A stretch of DNA of 64,000 bases, taken from the NCBI GenBank assembly GCA_026645945.1, contig JAPKMO010000001.1, positions 7,427 through 71,426 on the forward strand, read 5' to 3'. Below, one piece after another: positions 54,049 to 59,617 of this stretch. How positions within the stretch are numbered: the stretch's first letter is position 1; each line of letters begins with the position of its first letter. The position numbers and the translations under genes are program-made. The notes beneath the pieces are model-generated. The model ran no database searches. It was not told the origin of the DNA and saw only the letters and a program-made list of their open reading frames with translations. Source of the DNA: Anaerolineae bacterium. GTDB lineage: Bacteria > Chloroflexota > Anaerolineae > Aggregatilineales > Phototrophicaceae.

Positions 54049-55164
54049 ATGATGGAAAACGTGATTTCATCCGCAGTCATGACCGATCATGAAACGCTGA
54101 TCGAACAGGAACAAGCGGCCATCGAACGTATCCGGGCGGCGCGGCGCGTCCTGGGCGATCAGGTCGTTATCCTGGGACACCATTACCAGCGCGATGAAGT
54201 GATACAGTTTGCCGATTTTCAGGGCGACAGCTACCAGTTGAGCCGGGAAGGTGCGAAGGTGGCCGCTAAATACATCGTGTTCGCCGGCGTTCACTTCATG
54301 GCGGAAAGCGCCGTCATCCTGGGGCGCGATGACCAGACCGTGATTCTGCCGAACATGCAGGCCGGATGCAGCATGGCCGATATGGCGAACCTGGAACAGG
54401 TGTTAAGCGCCTGGGTGGAGCTAGAAGATGTGCTGGGCGATAACCCGGCCAATATCATCACACCGATCACCTATATGAACAGCACCGCCGACCTAAAGGC
54501 ATTCGTAGGCGAAAACGGCGGGACGGTCTGCACATCGTCGAATGCGCGCGGCGCGCTGGAATGGGCTTTCGCGCAGCGTGAGAAGGTGTTTTTCTTCCCT
54601 GACCAACACCTGGGGCGCAACACGGGCAAACGGATGGGTTTACCGCTGGAGCAGATGGTGCTGTGGAATCCCTTCAAACCCTACGGCGGCCTGACCGACG
54701 GCCAGATTCGCGGCGCGCGGATCATTCTGTGGCAGGGGCATTGCAGCGTTCACCAGCAGTTCCGCCCGGAGCATGTTGATCTGTGGCGGCGGCATCATCC
54801 CGATGTTCATATCCTGGTGCATCCTGAATGCGCGATGGAGGTGGTGGACAAAGCCGATTATATCGGCTCGACGGCTTACATCATCAAAATGGTGGAAAAC
54901 GCGCTGCCGGGCAGCAAGTGGGCTGTCGGCACGGAAATTCACCTGGTCAACCGCCTGAAGAATGCTCACCCGGACAAAATGGTGGAATCGCTGTCGCCGT
55001 TTTCGTGCCTGTGCAGCACCATGTACCGCATTAGCCCGATTGACCTGGCGAACGTGCTGGAAAACCTGGCGGCAGGCCGAGTCGTTAACCCGATCACCGT
55101 GCCGCCGGACATCCGCCGGAATGCCAAACTGGCGCTCGACCGGATGCTTGCCATACCAAAGTAG
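54049..55164 (+). CDS. nadA: Quinolinate synthase
   Basis: ILGHHYQR, GVHFMAE, three Fe-S cysteines (AGCSMAD, GHCSVH, CLCSTM), HPEC. Confidence 0.95.
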   Translation: MMENVISSAVMTDHETLIEQEQAAIERIRAARRVLGDQVVILGHHYQRDEVIQFADFQGDSYQLSREGAKVAAKYIVFAGVHFMAESAVILGRDDQTVILPNMQAGCSMADMANLEQVLSAWVELEDVLGDNPANIITPITYMNSTADLKAFVGENGGTVCTSSNARGALEWAFAQREKVFFFPDQHLGRNTGKRMGLPLEQMVLWNPFKPYGGLTDGQIRGARIILWQGHCSVHQQFRPEHVDLWRRHHPDVHILVHPECAMEVVDKADYIGSTAYIIKMVENALPGSKWAVGTEIHLVNRLKNAHPDKMVESLSPFSCLCSTMYRISPIDLANVLENLAAGRVVNPITVPPDIRRNAKLALDRMLAIPK

Positions 55165-55173
55165 CGAAATGGA

Positions 55174-56790
55174 ATGAACAATCTTCGCACCCACACACTC
55201 ATTATCGGCTGCGGCATCGCCGGGGCGGCGGCGGCTTTGCACCTCAGCGATGATCCGGCGCATGATGTTATCATCATCACCCGCGCTGCCGAGGCTTCCG
55301 ACACAGCTTCAACCTGGGCGCAGGGCGGCATCGTCACGCGCGGCCTGGACGATTCGCCCGATCTGCTGGTTCGGGACATTTTGGAGGCCGGGGCGGGGCT
55401 GAGTTCCCCGCATATGGCGCGCATCCTGGCCGAAGAAGGGCCGGAACTGGTGCGCTTTGTGTTAATCGAACGCTGCGGCGTGAGTTTCGACCACACCGAC
55501 GATGGCGAACTGGTCTACGGGTTGGAGGGCGCGCACAGCACCCGGCGGATTCTGCACGTCGGCGACCAGACCGGCGCGGCCATTATCAACGGGATGCTCA
55601 AAACGCTGGCCGAGCGCCCCAACGTCACGCTGCTCACCCACCACACGGCGGTTGACCTGATTACGTTTCCGCATCATGCGCTTGACCCGCTGGCGGTTTA
55701 TGGGCCGATCACCTGTCATGGCGCGTATGTGCTGAATCGTAAAACCGGGGAAGTAAACCGCGTTCTGGCCGGGCAGACCATTCTGGCGACCGGCGGGCTG
55801 GGGCAGATTTTCCGCAACACCAGCAATCCAAAGGGCGCGCGCGGCGATGGGCTGGCGATGGCCTGGCGCGCCGGGGCACGGGTCGTTAACGCCGAATACG
55901 TGCAGTTCCACCCGACTACGCTCAGCGTGCGGGGCGCGCCGAACCTGCTCATCAGCGAGGCGGTGCGCGGCGAAGGGGCGGTGCTGCTGACGCCGGATGG
56001 CCGCCCGTTTATGGCCGATTATGCGCCGGAATGGAAGGATTTAGCGCCGCGCGATGTGGTGGCGCGCGCCATCCATACCGAGATGCTGGAACACGGTTAC
56101 GAACACGTCTACCTGGACATCGCCAGCAAACACCCCGCCGATTTTATTCGCAGCCGTTTTCCGCTGCTGGCGGCCAACTGCGCCCAGTACGGGCTGGACG
56201 TAACGCGCGATCTGATTCCGGTTGTTCCTGCCGCGCATTACTTCTGCGGCGGCATCCTGACCGATGAATGGGGGCAGACCAGCTTGGAAGGGCTGTATGC
56301 CGTCGGCGAAGTAAGCTGCACCGGGCTGCATGGCGCGAACCGGCTGGCAAGCACCAGCCTGCTGGAAGGGTTGGTCTGGGGCGACCGGGCGGCGCGCCAT
56401 ATCCTGCCCCGGCGGCGTGACCCGGTGGATGATGCCCGCGTGCCGGGGTGGGTCTACCGGGGGGACAGCGAGCCGGACCCGGCCTTGATCGAGGTGGACA
56501 TGACCACCATTAAAAACGTGATGTGGCATTACGTCGGCCTGGTGCGGACGGCGGAACGCCTGGCGCGTGCCGAGCGCGAACTGCGCCATCTGTGGCACGA
56601 AATCGAGGAATTTTACCGCAGCCAGCGGTTGAACGATGCCTTGGTGGGGCTGCGTAACGCGGTGCAGGTGGCGCGCATCGTCACGTTTTCGGCGCAGCGC
56701 AACCGCGTCAGCCGGGGAGCGCATTACCGCGCCGACGCGGCGTCCGCGCTGCCGATAACCGAAATGCCCGCCAGCCGGATGAGCCGATGA
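55174..56790 (+). CDS. nadB: L-aspartate oxidase
   Basis: IIGCGIAG, WAQGGI, EGAHS.RRILH, QFHPT, SEAVRGEG, PAAHY, HGANRLASTSLLEG. Confidence 0.95.
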   Translation: MNNLRTHTLIIGCGIAGAAAALHLSDDPAHDVIIITRAAEASDTASTWAQGGIVTRGLDDSPDLLVRDILEAGAGLSSPHMARILAEEGPELVRFVLIERCGVSFDHTDDGELVYGLEGAHSTRRILHVGDQTGAAIINGMLKTLAERPNVTLLTHHTAVDLITFPHHALDPLAVYGPITCHGAYVLNRKTGEVNRVLAGQTILATGGLGQIFRNTSNPKGARGDGLAMAWRAGARVVNAEYVQFHPTTLSVRGAPNLLISEAVRGEGAVLLTPDGRPFMADYAPEWKDLAPRDVVARAIHTEMLEHGYEHVYLDIASKHPADFIRSRFPLLAANCAQYGLDVTRDLIPVVPAAHYFCGGILTDEWGQTSLEGLYAVGEVSCTGLHGANRLASTSLLEGLVWGDRAARHILPRRRDPVDDARVPGWVYRGDSEPDPALIEVDMTTIKNVMWHYVGLVRTAERLARAERELRHLWHEIEEFYRSQRLNDALVGLRNAVQVARIVTFSAQRNRVSRGAHYRADAASALPITEMPASRMSR

Positions 56791-56800
56791 GGGTATAACG

Positions 56801-57982
56801 ATGAATCCGGATTTTATTTATCTCGACCACAGCGCGACGACGCCGACCGACCCGCGTGTCGTGGAGGCGATGATGCCGTACTGGACGGCGCAGTTTGGCA
56901 ACCCCTCCAGCCTGCACCGGGCCGGTAAAGTTGCAAAACTGGCGCTGGACACGGCGCGCGAAGCCGCCGCTGCGGTATTAAACTGCGCGCCTGCCGAGAT
57001 CGTCTTTACCAGCGGCGGTACGGAGAGCGACAACCTGGCGCTGAAAGGCGTGGCGCGGGCGATGCGGGCGCGTGGCCGGGGCAGCCATATCATCACGACG
57101 GCGGCTGAACACCATGCCGTCCTGGACGTGGCGAAAGAACTGGCCGATGACGGCTTTGAGGTGACTTTTCTACCGGTGGATGAATTTGGCCGCGTGACCG
57201 CTGGGCAGGTATTGGAGGCCGCGCGCGACGATACGATACTGGCGAGCGTGATTTACGCGAATAACGAAGTCGGAAGCCTGAACCCGATCTCGGAAATCGG
57301 CGCTGCGCTGCGCGAGCGGCGTATTCCGTTCCATACCGATGCAGTGCAGGCTCCTGGCAGCCTGCCGCTGGATGTGAAGGCGCTCAATGCTGACCTGATG
57401 AGCCTTTCGGCACACAAGTTTTATGGGCCGAAAGGTATCGGCATGCTGTATGTGCGGCGCGCTGTGCCGCTTCAAGCGCAGATGGTCGGCGGCGGGCAGC
57501 AGTCGCACCGCCGCAGCGGAACCGAACCGGTCGCGCTGATCGTGGGGCTGGCGGAGGCGCTGCGGCTGGCCGAAGCCGAACGCGAGGAAACTGCCGCGCG
57601 GCTGGCTGCCCTGCGCGATATGCTGATCGAGCGTGTGCTGGCGACCATCCCGGAGGCGGCGCTGACGGGACACCCGACCGAACGCCTGCCGGGGCATACC
57701 AGCTTCGCTATGAAAGGGCTGAACGGCGATTCGATTTTGCTGGACTTGAATGAAGTTGGCATCGGGGCCAGCGGGGGAAGCGCCTGCACGACCGGCCAGC
57801 AGGAGCCGAGCCACGTGCTGGTAGCGATGGGCATAGACCCCGACCGGCTGATGGGGCAGATGCGGTTTGTGCTGGGCAAACACAGCCAGCCGGAGCATAT
57901 AGACCGGCTGCTTTATCACCTGGCCGCCCTGGCCGAACGTCACCGGGTCATGGTGCCGGAGATCGAACGCCGGATTGAATGA
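56801..57982 (+). CDS. Cysteine desulfurase (IscS/NifS family)
   Basis: YLDHSATTP, FTSGGTESDN, HTDAVQ, SAHKFYGPKG, GSACT. Confidence 0.93.
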   Translation: MNPDFIYLDHSATTPTDPRVVEAMMPYWTAQFGNPSSLHRAGKVAKLALDTAREAAAAVLNCAPAEIVFTSGGTESDNLALKGVARAMRARGRGSHIITTAAEHHAVLDVAKELADDGFEVTFLPVDEFGRVTAGQVLEAARDDTILASVIYANNEVGSLNPISEIGAALRERRIPFHTDAVQAPGSLPLDVKALNADLMSLSAHKFYGPKGIGMLYVRRAVPLQAQMVGGGQQSHRRSGTEPVALIVGLAEALRLAEAEREETAARLAALRDMLIERVLATIPEAALTGHPTERLPGHTSFAMKGLNGDSILLDLNEVGIGASGGSACTTGQQEPSHVLVAMGIDPDRLMGQMRFVLGKHSQPEHIDRLLYHLAALAERHRVMVPEIERRIE

Positions 57983-57996
57983 CGAAACGCGGGAGT

Positions 57997-58026
57997 CAAA
58001 AGCCCCTTCTTGCAAGGGGCTTTTTG
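57997..58026. terminator. Bidirectional intrinsic terminator
   Basis: CAAAAGCCCCTT-CTTGC-AAGGGGCTTTTTG with T-tracts on both strands, between the convergent cysteine desulfurase gene and the ncRNA. Confidence 0.85.
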
Positions 58027-58033
58027 CTACCTG

Positions 58034-58143
58034 TGGACGTGGGGGTTCCGCCACCCCGTCTGCGAAGTCGTTAACAGCCGGTTTTCACGTTTGACCAATG
58101 CGCCTTCTCGCTACTGCCTCCACATCGAGACTATTTCACGCCC
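58034..58143 (-). ncRNA. Miniature tmRNA-like RNA (tRNA-like domain only, 110 nt)
   Basis: Minus strand: GGGCGUG / AAAUAGUCUCGA / UGUGGAG ...50 nt... CUUCGCA / GAC / GGGGU-GGCGGA-ACCCC / CACGUCC / A. Acceptor stem with G3-U, P2a helix and T arm; own promoter and terminator. Confidence 0.8.
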
Positions 58144-58154
58144 ATGATAGATTC

Positions 58155-58182
58155 ATTATATTACAGGCGACGTTAATTTCAA
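58155..58182 (-). promoter_or_regulatory. Sigma70-type promoter of the tmRNA-like gene
   Basis: Minus-strand TTGAAA (58182-58177), 16 bp, TATAAT (58160-58155), 11 nt upstream of G1. Confidence 0.75.
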
Positions 58183-58202
58183 GGGTGAACGCCGCAGGGC
58201 TG

Positions 58203-58601
58203 CTAATGCAGCTTTTCGAGATGATTGGTGAGCGTGCCATCCAGATAGGCACGAACGGCTTCATCAGGATTTGCGATGGTCGTGATGTATGCCCGGATGC
58301 CGGCCTGTTCAAAAGCGAGGTACGCGCCTCGCCCCATGCCGCGCACAATCGCTACCTCGCAGTCCATAATGGGCGACAGCATCTGGTTATGTCTGGAGTC
58401 GGCTTCTGCGCCGAGGCCATGTTCATGATGTTCGTGTTCATCATGATGATGGCCTTCTGCGGCGTGGTGGTGGCTCGGTTTAGCCAGGACTTCTCGATGG
58501 ACAACTGCTCCATCTTCGATGGTGTAGACCAGATAGGACAGTGCGCGGCCAAAATGCCGGCTGATGGATTGGCCGTCGTCGGTGACAATGGCGATTTTCA
58601 C
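58203..58601 (-). CDS. NifB/NifX family (FeMo-cofactor-binding-like) protein with His-rich insert
   Basis: KIAIVTDDG..ISRHFGRA, CEVAIVRGMGRGA; GTG start with AAGGAG RBS. Confidence 0.85.
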   Translation of the reverse strand: MKIAIVTDDGQSISRHFGRALSYLVYTIEDGAVVHREVLAKPSHHHAAEGHHHDEHEHHEHGLGAEADSRHNQMLSPIMDCEVAIVRGMGRGAYLAFEQAGIRAYITTIANPDEAVRAYLDGTLTNHLEKLH

Positions 58602-58645: not shown

Positions 58646-59617
58646 CTACCGTGCCAATTCCTGAGCCAGTTCGATCAAATCCAGGTCAATCTCTTTTTTG
58701 TGGGAGATTACTTCGGAAAGTGGCGTGGTGGTAACTTCGCCCCTGTTCAACCCGACCAGGACGTTGTACTCGCCGCGCTCCAGGCAGCGGATGGCTGCCG
58801 CGCCCAACCGGGTCGCCAGCAGGCGATCAAATGCGCCCGGCTGCCCACCGCGCTGGATGTGTCCCAATTTGGTGATGCGGAGTTCAAAACCCAACTGCTT
58901 TTCGTTCACTTTGAAATACTCATCCAGTTCTTCGGCATCGTGCTGCGCGCCTTCGGCCACCACGACGATGGCATGAGCCTTACCGCGTTCGTAAGCGGCG
59001 CGCAGTTCGCGGGCGATTTCTGCCGGCTGGACTTCAACCTCTGGGATGACAATGGCCTCCGCGCCGCCGGCGATTCCGCTCATCAGCGCCAGATAACCGC
59101 AGTCGCGCCCCATGACCTCGATTAAAAAGGCGCGCTGGTGCGATGAAGCGGTGACTTTCAGGCGGTCGATGGCTTCCAGGGCGATATTCAGGGCGGTATC
59201 CACGCCGATGGTAATTTCCGAGCCGTAGAGGTCGTTGTCAATGGTCGAGGCGACACCGACGACCGGAAAGCCCATTTCGGAAAGGGCGAAAGCGCCGGCT
59301 TGCGATCCGTTGCCGCCGATTACCACCAAGCCGTCAATATCCCGCTTCCGCAGTTCACGGATGGCGCGCAGCCGTCCTTCTTCGGTTTTAAACTCAGGAC
59401 AGCGGGCGCTGCCGAGAATCGTGCCGCCCAGTTGGATGATGCTGCTGACATCGCGCGCGCCCATTGGCCGCATACTGCCGGCGATGAGGCCGCTGTAACC
59501 CTGTTCGACGCCGTAGACTTCCCACCCTCTGGCGACGCCGGTTCGCACGACGGCGCGAATAGCCGCGTTCATGCCGGGGGCGTCGCCCCCGCTCGTTAAA
59601 ACGGCAATGCGTTTCAC
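58646..59617 (-). CDS. pfkA: ATP-dependent 6-phosphofructokinase
   Basis: TSGGDAPGMNA, GGTILGSAR, IGGNGS, STIDND, EVMGR, GHIQRGG. Confidence 0.95.
   Translation of the reverse strand: MKRIAVLTSGGDAPGMNAAIRAVVRTGVARGWEVYGVEQGYSGLIAGSMRPMGARDVSSIIQLGGTILGSARCPEFKTEEGRLRAIRELRKRDIDGLVVIGGNGSQAGAFALSEMGFPVVGVASTIDNDLYGSEITIGVDTALNIALEAIDRLKVTASSHQRAFLIEVMGRDCGYLALMSGIAGGAEAIVIPEVEVQPAEIARELRAAYERGKAHAIVVVAEGAQHDAEELDEYFKVNEKQLGFELRITKLGHIQRGGQPGAFDRLLATRLGAAAIRCLERGEYNVLVGLNRGEVTTTPLSEVISHKKEIDLDLIELAQELAR

What the first reader, a model, noticed from the sequence alone, without database searches (positions are those of the whole stretch)
58034..58143. Stand-alone miniature tmRNA-like RNA: full tRNA-like domain without the normal mRNA-like domain
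Seen in sequence (minus strand): 5' GGGCGUG pairs with 3' CACGUCC (7 bp, G3-U wobble), followed by discriminator A. A 12-nt D-loop AAAUAGUCUCGA follows, then a 7-bp helix UGUGGAG/CUUCGCA, the GAC linker and a T arm. It sits between a TTGAAA-16-TATAAT promoter and a strong terminator, so it is its own transcription unit. Established: G3-U plus A discriminator are the AlaRS identity elements, and a stemless D-loop ending UCGA, P2 helix and GAC-T arm define the SmpB-binding tRNA-like domain of tmRNA. Normal tmRNA is about 350 nt; here only 50 nt lie inside P2, too few for the pseudoknot ring. The order is standard (not the permuted two-piece form), and both ends pair, so it is not a simple integration scar. 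The MLD-less tmRNAs I know of are mitochondrial (e.g. jakobids). Inference: an alanylatable SmpB-binding RNA acting in tag-free ribosome rescue, as an SmpB decoy or regulator of trans-translation, or as an Ala donor. CCA is not encoded (3' end reads A-CAG) and would need to be added.
Basis: partly seen in the sequence, partly recalled or inferred. Interest (0 to 1): 0.92.

Follow-up and report, generated by a model that had tools for sequence, protein, structure and literature searches.

The report
Tag-less second tmRNA gene in Anaerolineae
This is a real, separately transcribed small RNA that copies only the alanine-accepting tRNA-like end of the ribosome-rescue RNA (tmRNA) and replaces the tag message with a new conserved arm. 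It sits beside a normal tmRNA gene in about a quarter of the genomes sampled from one family of Chloroflexota bacteria (less often in the rest of the order), and no database or paper I could search describes it.

Summary
Window 58034-58143 (minus strand) encodes a 110-nt RNA with its own promoter and terminator.

The RNA is a paralog of this lineage's own tmRNA tRNA-like domain (TLD). It has a 7-bp acceptor stem with G3·U, discriminator A, a stemless 12-nt D-loop ending UCGA, helix P2, a GAC linker and a T-arm. The genome also has one normal ssrA (387 nt, tag ANNNTYALPMAA) and one smpB.

I found 58 distinct homologs, all in the class Anaerolineae (Chloroflexota). They occur in 40 of 151 genomes of the family and in 6 of 8 families of the order.
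- 95.8% of base-pair cells are paired, and 28 of 31 pairs show compensatory changes.
- The only invariant pairs are G1-C, G2-C and G3·U, and A73 is kept in 58/58. From memory, these are the positions known to determine AlaRS recognition.
- Elbow positions 18/55 covary without exception (A/G 51, G/U 7).

Instead of pseudoknots and a tag frame, the interior holds P3, an AGUA/GAAA sarcin-ricin-type internal loop, P4 and an invariant GAAGGCGCA loop.

Rfam's tmRNA model scores six members above its cut-off. The window's own copy is not among them and is atypical, because it lacks 10 nt (one strand of P3).

Function is not shown. Most likely the RNA is charged with alanine and acts at or on trans-translation without tagging. 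No expression data could be obtained. Earlier notes of this scan report other mini-tmRNAs (Patescibacteria, phages), but a sequence look-up did not find this family.

The parts
58177..58182 (-). -35 box TTGAAA
   Evidence: Promoter scan 11/12 match with 16-nt spacer. 34 of 44 homologs have a >=8/12 promoter ending 5-14 nt before G1, against 5 of 196 control positions.
58155..58160 (-). -10 box TATAAT, 11 nt upstream of G1
58034..58143 (-). Mini-tmRNA gene, from G1 to discriminator A (110 nt in this copy; about 120 nt in relatives)
   Evidence: Model R1 scores it 98.5 bits. The alignments are A1, A2 and A6.
58137..58143 (-). P1 5' strand GGGCGUG (acceptor stem, G3 of the G3·U pair)
   Evidence: G1-C, G2-C and G3·U are invariant in 58/58. 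Pairs 4-7 covary: GC 36, CG 15, UA 4, AU 3 at pair 4.
58125..58136 (-). Stemless D-loop AAAUAGUCUCGA, ending in the GA of the tandem G·A pairs
   Evidence: UCGA is nearly invariant. A18 covaries with T-loop G55: A/G 51, G/U 7, none mixed. The genome's own ssrA reads AAAUAGUUUCGA.
58118..58124 (-). P2 5' strand UGUGGAG. The 10-nt deletion specific to this copy lies just 3' of it.
   Evidence: All 7 P2 pairs show changes on both sides. The deletion is seen against L010/L011 and all other members.
58112..58115 (-). AGUA, 5' strand of the sarcin-ricin/loop-E-type internal loop
   Evidence: A50/G7, G58, U57, A57 of 58. The motif assignment rests on the remembered consensus AGUA/GAA and is an inference.
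58109..58111 (-). P4 5' strand GCG
   Evidence: Pairs with CGU at 58087-58089. Compensatory types are GCG/CGY, GCC/GGC, AUG/CAU, CUG/CAG, GGU/ACC, ACC/GGU and GUGG/CCAC.
58099..58107 (-). Invariant loop motif GAAGGCGCA within the P4 loop (58090-58108)
   Evidence: A, A, G, G, C are 56-58 of 58. Positions 1 and 7 of the motif covary non-canonically: G..G 48, A..C 9, G..C 1.
58087..58089 (-). P4 3' strand CGU
   Evidence: helix 6: 98.3% of cells paired, and all 3 pairs have changes on both sides.
58083..58086 (-). GAAA, 3' strand of the sarcin-ricin/loop-E-type internal loop
   Evidence: G56, A51, A58, A57 of 58.
58076..58081 (-). P3 3' strand CCGGCU, orphaned in this copy because its 5' partner is deleted
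   Evidence: In the other members P3 is 6 bp, 97% of cells are paired, and all 6 pairs have changes on both sides.
58061..58067 (-). P2 3' strand CUUCGCA
58058..58060 (-). GAC linker (equivalent of tmRNA 333-GA-334 plus C)
   Evidence: Invariant. The tmRNA feature is described in PMC1168896.
58042..58057 (-). T-arm GGGGU-GGCGGA-ACCCC (5 bp, with a 6-nt loop in this clade and 7 nt elsewhere)
   Evidence: All 5 pairs covary and 100% of cells are paired. Loop types are UGCAAUU, GGCAGUA and the canonical UUCGAUU/UUCAACU.
58035..58041 (-). P1 3' strand CACGUCC (U70 of the G3·U pair)
58034..58034 (-). Discriminator A; no CCA follows (CAG)
   Evidence: A in 58/58. The lack of an encoded CCA is the rule in this genome.
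57998..58025 (-). Intrinsic terminator AAAAAGCCCCUU-GCAAG-AAGGGGCUUUU
   Evidence: Terminators are found in at least 23 of 48 homologs.

Best explanation
This gene encodes a tag-less paralog of tmRNA, a mini-tmRNA. It probably arose by duplication of ssrA early in this Anaerolineae lineage, with the pseudoknot ring and tag frame replaced by a compact arm (P2 extension, P3, an AGUA/GAAA S-turn loop, P4, and the loop GAAGGCGCA).

Shown:
- It is homologous to the resident ssrA TLD.
- It is a conserved, covarying structure.
- It has its own promoter and terminator.
- It coexists with a normal ssrA and a single smpB.
- It has no conserved reading frame.

Inferred:
- The transcript starts a few nucleotides before G1 and is trimmed by RNase P and 3' nucleases.
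- It receives CCA after transcription and is charged with alanine by AlaRS.
- Its tRNA-like elbow binds SmpB and its acceptor/T minihelix binds EF-Tu, so Ala-mini-tmRNA can enter stalled ribosomes as ssrA does.
- Having no message, it cannot add a degradation tag. It either gives a tag-free outcome (one Ala added, then release by a factor recruited through the conserved arm) or competes with ssrA and so tunes tagging.

The conserved arm must have a specific partner, a protein or rRNA, which is unknown.

The window's own copy lacks one strand of P3 and may be impaired.
For: - Homology. The genome's own ssrA reads 5' GGGGGUGAAAUAGUUUCGAC and 3' ...GGAC-T arm-CACCUCC-A-CUG. The element reads GGGCGUGAAAUAGUCUCGAU and ...GAC-T arm-CACGUCC-A-CAG. 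In other genera the mini-RNA and ssrA have identical acceptor stems.
- Rfam RF00023 scores six members at 49.7-60.8 bits (cut-off 47). It aligns P1, the D-loop, 12 bp of P2a, GGAC and the T-arm, and replaces 296 model positions with a 47-nt insert.
- Structure. 58 distinct sequences, 95.8% of cells paired, and 28 of 31 pairs with changes on both sides.
- Selection on alanine identity. Only G1-C72, G2-C71 and G3·U70 never vary, and A73 is kept in 58/58. PMC3968760 names G3·U70 and A73 as the AlaRS keys.
- Elbow. Positions 18/55 are A/G in 51 and G/U in 7, never mixed. Positions 54/58 are U/A in 29 and G/G in 28. SmpB binds the elbow and needs the D/T-loop interaction (PMC3968760). The tandem GA/GA and C21-G333 features are kept.
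- Coexistence. ssrA is present in 111 of 111 high-quality family genomes, and smpB is single-copy.
- Transcription unit. Promoters in 34 of 44 copies against 5 of 196 controls.
Against: - There is no expression, processing, charging or binding data.
- Most members have non-canonical T-loops (G55 in place of U55, and G54·G58 in about half). Compatibility of these with SmpB, EF-Tu and the ribosome is unproven. The bona fide ssrA of the window's genus does use an AG D-loop and a UGCGA-type T-loop.
- The distribution is patchy: 40 of 151 genomes in the family and 18 of 151 in the order sample. The RNA is therefore dispensable.
- No partner gene is linked to it.
- A TLD-only RNA expressed in E. coli inhibits tmRNA, according to PMC4131195 and PMC11915505. 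That favours a competitor role over a rescue role.
- The window copy itself fails the tmRNA model and lacks P3.
Confidence: 0.5

Rival explanations
1. It is a pure decoy or regulator. The RNA titrates SmpB (and perhaps AlaRS or EF-Tu) away from ssrA and lowers trans-translation under some condition, without any chemistry on the ribosome.
For: - A TLD-like molecule strongly inhibits tmRNA in E. coli whether or not it can be charged, perhaps by titrating SmpB (Mao et al. 2009, as cited in PMC4131195; PMC11915505).
- The RNA always coexists with ssrA and a single smpB.
- It has its own promoter, so it could be regulated separately.
Against: - Strict invariance of the alanine identity set and A73 would not be needed for SmpB titration.
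- The most conserved part is the new arm and loop. A simple decoy would not need it, and the 67-nt and 81-nt TLD-only forms in other Anaerolineae lack it.
Confidence: 0.22
2. It uses a tRNA-like scaffold for another job. The TLD serves only for processing and stability (RNase P, CCA addition, possibly charging). The working part is the S-turn arm and GAAGGCGCA loop, which binds a protein or pairs with an RNA target unrelated to ribosome rescue.
For: - The arm and loop are the best conserved sequence. Blastn hits in distant relatives cover only this core, and the invariant columns lie there.
- S-turn loops are common protein or tertiary docking sites (established knowledge, recalled from memory).
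- The non-canonical covariation inside the loop implies a specific fold.
Against: - Selection on G3·U, A73, the elbow pairs 18/55 and the GA/GA platform goes beyond what a stability module needs.
- No conserved neighbouring gene points to a partner.
- The tested pairing with the ssrA pseudoknot-1 region covaries in only 1 of 4 informative genomes.
Confidence: 0.17
3. It is an alanine donor for a non-ribosomal aminoacyl-transfer reaction (cell wall, lipid or peptide modification), like specialised tRNA isoacceptors that avoid the ribosome.
For: - The alanine identity elements are invariant.
- There is no anticodon or message.
- The T-loop departs from the canonical form in most members, which could reduce ribosome or EF-Tu use.
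Against: - No Fem/MprF-type or other aa-tRNA-dependent transferase gene is linked in 46 neighbourhoods.
- Retention of the SmpB-platform features specific to tmRNA (stemless D-loop, GA/GA, P2) would be unexplained.
Confidence: 0.06
4. It is a decaying ssrA pseudogene, a genomic-island integration scar, or a chance fold.
For: - The window copy alone folds no better than shuffles (z = -1.56).
- It fails ARAGORN and Rfam.
- It has a 10-nt deletion that removes one strand of P3.
Against: - 58 distinct homologs across six families show compensatory changes in every helix, including helices absent from ssrA.
- Both gene ends are present, the RNA has its own promoter, it lies on a contig other than ssrA, and no integrase lies nearby.
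- Only this single copy, not the family, could be degenerate.
Confidence: 0.03

Closest known systems
Standard one-piece tmRNA (SsrA, Rfam RF00023)
   Same: It shares the 7-bp acceptor stem with G3·U70 and A73, a stemless 12-13-nt D-loop ending UCGA, the tandem GA/GA pairs, helix P2a, the GGAC/GAC linker, a 5-bp T-arm, and the standard 5'-to-3' order. The lack of an encoded CCA matches the resident ssrA. Six members pass the Rfam cut-off.
   Different: It has no pseudoknots, no resume codon, no tag frame and no stop codon. It is about 120 nt rather than about 387 nt. Its interior is a new P3 / S-turn / P4 arm. Its T-loop is mostly UGCAAUU or GGCAGUA. It is a second gene beside a normal ssrA.
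TLD-only tmRNA of mycobacteriophage DS6A, and the 'Standard, no CDS' entries of the tmRNA database (PMC4131195, PMC11915505)
   Same: These are also tmRNA tRNA-like domains without a tag frame. The DS6A-type molecule is reported to inhibit host tmRNA.
   Different: Those are about 65-nt RNAs with only a capped P2, carried by a phage or a plastid, or are the sole tmRNA of a reduced genome. This one is chromosomal in free-living bacteria, coexists with ssrA, and has a conserved extra domain of about 60 nt. The database lists 0 NoCDS entries for Chloroflexota.
Mitochondrial tmRNA of jakobids and oomycetes (Rfam RF02544)
   Same: These are also TLDs without a tag frame, thought to work with SmpB (PMC11915505).
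   Different: The mitochondrial form is usually permuted, is the only tmRNA of the organelle, and has no conserved arm. No Rfam hit to RF02544 was found here.
Mini-tmRNAs noted earlier in this scan (Patescibacteria, 134-150 nt; phages, 80-117 nt)
   Same: They follow the same general idea: an alanine-type TLD is kept and the message is lost.
   Different: They are different sequence families. A by-sequence look-up of this family found nothing. They come from other taxa, and I could not compare structures. Those notes are unchecked leads.
Sarcin-ricin / loop-E (bulged-G, S-turn) motif
   Same: The internal loop reads 5'-RGUA-3' / 5'-GAA(A)-3' and is flanked by two helices. It is nearly invariant.
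   Different: The assignment rests on consensus alone, recalled from memory. There is no GAGA tetraloop as in the 23S SRL, and no 3D evidence.

Membership tests
tmRNA (SsrA), tRNA-like domain | 7-bp acceptor stem with a G3·U70 wobble pair and an A discriminator (AlaRS keys) | tested here: met
   G3·U in 58/58 and A73 in 58/58. G1-C and G2-C are also invariant, while pairs 4-7 covary. In the window: GGGCGUG/CACGUCC-A.
tmRNA (SsrA), tRNA-like domain | Stemless D-loop of 10-13 nt, tandem non-Watson-Crick 19-GA-20 / 333-GA-334, and a first P2a pair C21-G333 (PMC1168896) | tested here: met
   The D-loop is 12-13 nt and ends UCGA. GAC is invariant. The first P2 pair is U-A in 31 and C-G in 27.
tmRNA (SsrA), tRNA-like domain | T-arm of 5 bp with a 7-nt T-loop that interacts with the D-loop (elbow) | tested here: met
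   The 5-bp stem is 100% paired and all 5 pairs covary. Positions 18/55 covary as A/G 51 and G/U 7, never mixed. The loop sequence is canonical (UUCRANU) in only 7 of 58. The window clade has a 6-nt loop.
tmRNA (SsrA), tRNA-like domain | Score at or above the Rfam RF00023 gathering cut-off (47 bits) | tested here: inconclusive
   Six members score 49.7-60.8 bits, and one scores 43.7. The window copy and L023 give no hit.
tmRNA (SsrA), full molecule | mRNA-like domain with a resume codon, a tag reading frame and a stop codon | tested here: not met
   There is no conserved frame. The only recurrent in-frame stop is the UAG within AGUAG, and it follows P4 covariation to UAC. Indels of 1-2 nt occur in the loop.
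tmRNA (SsrA), full molecule | Pseudoknot ring (PK1-PK4) | tested here: not met
   About 60 nt inside P2 form nested helices P3 and P4. 296 positions of the Rfam model are unmatched.
tmRNA (SsrA), function | Alanylation by AlaRS, binding of SmpB and EF-Tu, and entry into stalled ribosomes | not testable with these tools
   These are inferred only, from conserved identity and elbow elements. smpB is present as a single copy.
TLD-only tmRNA (DS6A type) | A TLD whose P2 is closed by a short cap, about 65-80 nt, with no other domain | tested here: not met
   This family carries a conserved 60-nt arm. True short forms exist elsewhere in Anaerolineae: 67 nt in L150 and 81 nt in L145-L147.
Canonical tRNA-Ala | Cloverleaf with a D-stem and an anticodon arm | tested here: not met
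   ARAGORN finds none. There is no Rfam tRNA hit. The D-loop has no stem and there is no anticodon arm.
Sarcin-ricin / loop-E motif | 5'-AGUA-3' / 5'-GAA-3' internal loop between two helices | tested here: met
   The sequence consensus is met. The 3D fold cannot be tested here, and the consensus is recalled from memory.

The most novel reading that the evidence does not exclude
Aggregatilineales-type Anaerolineae run a second, tag-free branch of trans-translation. In this reading, Ala-mini-tmRNA with SmpB enters stalled ribosomes and takes over the nascent chain. Its conserved S-turn arm and GAAGGCGCA loop then recruit a hydrolysis or recycling factor, or contact the GTPase-associated centre. 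The protein is released with one extra alanine instead of a degradation tag. This would be an RNA-based counterpart of ArfA/ArfB in a lineage where no ArfB was found.
Probability: 0.2. Interest if true: 0.9.

Novelty: new variant of a known kind. Interest (0 to 1): 0.7.

Why it matters
tmRNA is usually described as one gene per bacterium that both rescues ribosomes and tags the unfinished protein. Here a free-living bacterial lineage keeps a second, tag-less derivative under clear selection. The selection acts on alanine identity, on the tRNA-like elbow and on a new structured arm.

This gives a natural system for asking what a tRNA-like domain alone does in a cell that also has full trans-translation. 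It could rescue without tagging, tune tagging, or do something else through the new arm.

It also matters for annotation. Some members exceed Rfam's tmRNA threshold and would be called tmRNA, while database pipelines reject them as truncated.

The family offers a compact (about 120-nt) RNA for structural work on SmpB, EF-Tu and ribosome recognition.

Tried and rejected
- ARAGORN and Rfam (gathering and E<=10) on the window copy found nothing relevant.
- Conserved gene neighbourhood: the longest flanking ORFs of 46 copies show no shared partner. PFK is upstream only in the window's genus, and there is no smpB, alaS, rnr or integrase nearby.
- Dedicated SmpB paralog: none. smpB is single-copy.
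- Replacement of ssrA: rejected. ssrA is present in 111 of 111 high-quality genomes.
- Hidden short tag frame: rejected.
- Local hairpin GCG/CGC for the start of the loop: rejected in favour of the distal P4 pairing, on compensatory changes.
- Loop pairing with the resident ssrA pseudoknot-1 region (AGGCGC/GCGCCU): it covaries in only 1 of 4 informative genomes, so rejected.
- Loop pairing with the RNA's own T-loop: inspected by eye on the listing and found inconsistent, so dropped.
- Phage carriage: the pattern scan of viral contigs gave two chance matches in a coding sequence with no model hit.
- ArfB presence or absence as a correlate: no ArfB in any of 11 genomes with or without the RNA, so it is uninformative.
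- First genome-contig scan with a 27-mer from the window copy: no hit.

Full report
**The observation**

On the minus strand of window 58034-58143 the sequence reads: GGGCGUG, AAAUAGUCUCGA, UGUGGAG, then 50 nt, then CUUCGCA, GAC, GGGGUGGCGGAACCCC, CACGUCC, A.
- A TTGAAA-16-TATAAT promoter (11/12) ends 11 nt upstream of G1, and a strong terminator follows 8 nt after the discriminator.
- On its own the element is unconvincing. The minimum-energy fold is no better than shuffles (z = -1.56).
- ARAGORN finds no tRNA or tmRNA in the window.
- Rfam finds nothing at gathering thresholds, and only terminator-type noise at E<=10.

**Relation to the genome's real tmRNA**

The assembly (4.7 Mb, 254 contigs) has a normal full-length ssrA on another contig (147 bits, 387 nt, tag ANNNTYALPMAA) and one smpB.
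- Its ssrA starts GGGGGUGAAAUAGUUUCGAC and ends ...GGAC-GGGGAUUGCGAAGUCCCC-CACCUCC-A-CUG.
- The element starts GGGCGUGAAAUAGUCUCGAU and ends ...GAC-hairpin-CACGUCC-A-CAG.
- The two share the D-loop almost letter for letter, share an unusual T-loop type, and both lack an encoded CCA.
- In other genera the mini-RNA and the resident ssrA have identical acceptor stems (GGGGGUG/CACCUCC), the same UUCGAC and the same GGAC.
- CCA is encoded in at most 4 of 46 tRNA genes of this genome, so its absence is normal.

The element is therefore a paralog of this lineage's own tmRNA tRNA-like domain (TLD).

**A conserved family**

- Blastn found homologs in 11 of 36 related genomes, and the interior was the best conserved part.
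- A 12-sequence MAFFT alignment gave a nested structure supported by compensatory changes.
- A covariance model built from that alignment (R1) found full-length matches in 40 of 151 genomes of the family, spanning 18 of 42 genera.
- In the order sample it found matches in 18 of 151 genomes, spanning 6 of 8 families.
- A phylum sample gave only one false hit.
- A class sample gave, outside the order, only an 81-nt relative in one further family.
- A pattern scan of one genome per species of all prokaryotes gave 62 hits. The model confirmed 40 of them. Apart from one record titled only 'bacterium', these carry Anaerolineae, Chloroflexota, Aggregatilineales or Phototrophicaceae titles.
- The nearest named genome is 'Anaerolineae bacterium CFX8'.
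- The same pattern found only chance coding-sequence matches in viral contigs.

**Structure and selection**

These counts are on 58 distinct sequences. The alignment was fitted to the model, so it leans toward the structure, but the independent MAFFT alignment agrees.
- 95.8% of base-pair cells are standard pairs, against 34-51% when the 3' partners are slid.
- 28 of 31 pairs show changes on both sides.
- No shuffle out of 500 reaches the observed values.
- The only three pairs that never vary are G1-C72, G2-C71 and G3·U70, and the discriminator is A in 58/58. Acceptor pairs 4-7 covary freely.
- G3·U70 and A73 are the published AlaRS keys (PMC3968760). From memory, G1-C72 and G2-C71 also contribute to AlaRS recognition.
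- The D-loop ends in UCGA and the linker is GAC throughout. This preserves the tandem GA/GA pairs and the first P2 pair (C-G or U-A) that define the tmRNA TLD (PMC1168896).
- The elbow is under selection. D-loop position 18 and T-loop position 55 are A/G in 51 sequences and G/U in 7, never mixed. T-loop positions 54/58 are U/A in 29 and G/G in 28.
- SmpB binds this elbow, and the D/T-loop interaction is needed for SmpB binding (PMC3968760).

**What replaces the message**

Inside P2 there are no pseudoknots and no reading frame.
- The only recurrent in-frame stop is the UAG of an AGUAG junction. It changes to UAC when the adjoining base pair changes.
- In place of the message there is a 3-bp extension of P2 and a 6-bp helix P3.
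- Next comes an internal loop reading 5'-RGUA-3' / 5'-GAAA-3'. Each of these positions is conserved in 51-58 of 58 sequences.
- Then comes a 3-4-bp helix P4 with many compensatory types, closing a loop of about 20 nt that begins N-GAAGGCGCA.
- The RGUA/GAA loop matches the consensus of the sarcin-ricin / loop-E (S-turn) motif. That assignment is from memory and is an inference.
- Within the loop, two positions covary non-canonically (G..G 48, A..C 9, G..C 1) in at least three families, which points to a specific fold.
- Two members carry an extra covarying hairpin in the P3/P2 junction.

**Rfam classification**

Rfam's tmRNA model aligns members end to end, with 296 interior model positions replaced by a 47-nt insert. 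Six members score 49.7-60.8 bits against a cut-off of 47. The window's genus does not reach significance.

**Context**

- The RNA is a free-standing gene.
- 34 of 44 copies have a promoter-like site ending 5-14 nt before G1, against 5 of 196 control positions. At least 23 of 48 have a strong terminator.
- Neighbours are not conserved beyond the window's genus, where PFK lies upstream. No smpB, alaS, RNase R or integrase is linked.
- ssrA is present in 111 of 111 high-quality genomes of the family, and smpB is single-copy. The mini-RNA is therefore an addition, not a replacement.
- ArfB was not found in 11 genomes, with or without the RNA.

**The window's own copy**

It is the only one of the 58 that lacks 10 nt (CCGGGCCGGG in its nearest relatives). 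The deletion removes the P2 extension and the 5' strand of P3. It scores 98.5 bits against about 131 for its closest kin. The deletion may be real, in which case the copy may be impaired, or it may be an assembly error. I could not check reads.

**What is known**

- TLD-only tmRNAs are recorded for mycobacteriophage DS6A, for mitochondria, for two plastids and for a few bacteria.
- A TLD-like molecule inhibits tmRNA in E. coli, perhaps by titrating SmpB (PMC4131195; PMC11915505).
- The 2025 tmRNA database lists 9 'Standard, no CDS' sequences and none for Chloroflexota (0 of 3,273 genomes). Its pipeline rejects truncated forms.
- Literature searches found no description of this family.
- Earlier notes of this scan report other mini-tmRNAs in Patescibacteria and phages. 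A by-sequence look-up of this family found nothing.

**Mechanism**

Shown:
- The RNA is an ssrA-derived, structurally conserved, separately promoted RNA beside a normal trans-translation kit.

Inferred:
- It receives CCA and is charged with alanine.
- It binds SmpB and EF-Tu through a maintained TLD and reaches stalled ribosomes.
- Lacking a message, it gives a tag-free outcome or competes with ssrA.
- The conserved arm has its own unknown partner.

Rivals are a pure SmpB decoy, a tRNA-like scaffold for an unrelated arm function, and an alanine donor. A pseudogene or integration scar is excluded for the family.

**Limits**

There are no biochemical tests. The S-turn assignment rests on consensus only. 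Counts come from samples of genomes, many of them incomplete.

Noticed in passing
L145:854-934, L146:318-398 (minus strand), L147:731-811: Another Anaerolineae family (3 of 3 genomes sampled) has an 81-nt TLD-only RNA. It has G3·U, an A discriminator, an A18/G55-type elbow, P2 closed by a 15-nt cap, and a CAC linker. It sits inside a tRNA gene cluster (Lys ... Asn, Gln). It scores 35-40 bits on RF00023, below the cut-off.
   Followed up: partly
L150:1501-1567 (G115:C61:16737-16803): A 67-nt TLD-only RNA: GGGGCUU...AAGCUCC-A, P2 GCCGUA-GCGA-UACGGC, and a canonical T-loop. It scores 67.6 bits on RF00023. It is a DS6A-like form in a genome of the same family that lacks the 125-nt form.
   Followed up: partly
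L001:1501-1887 (G000:C5:3103-3489): The window genome's bona fide ssrA has an AG (not GG) D-loop and an unusual T-loop, GGGGA-UUGCGAAG-UCCCC. That is the same elbow type as the mini-RNA. ssrA of other genera in the family has GG with UUCGAUU.
   Followed up: partly
L123:6622-6774 and L071:3258-3411 (minus strand): Two family members are about 153 nt long. They carry an extra covarying hairpin of about 29 nt in the junction between P3 and P2, which makes a three-way junction.
   Followed up: partly
G118:C1:255737-255864 and G118:C5:198116-198240: One genome holds two copies of the mini-RNA (91 and 68 bits).
   Followed up: no
L067:1501-1606 (minus strand): A weak phylum-level hit (31 bits). It has an acceptor-like GGAGGUG/CACCUCC stem (A3-U, not G3·U) around a long perfect hairpin and a T-arm-like hairpin. 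It is not a family member and its nature is unknown.
   Followed up: no
window 54049-58601: nadA (54049-55164), nadB-like flavoprotein (55174-56790) and a class-V aminotransferase / NifS-like gene (56801-57982) lie on the plus strand and converge on the RNA gene. A NifX-like Nitro_FeMo-Co domain protein (58203-58601) and PFK (58646-59617) lie upstream on the minus strand.
   Followed up: partly
Family-wide; listing: The P4 loop shows a strict non-Watson-Crick covariation, GAAGGCGC versus AAAGGCCC (48 versus 9, with one intermediate), which recurs in three families. It suggests a G·G / A·C tertiary pair.
   Followed up: partly
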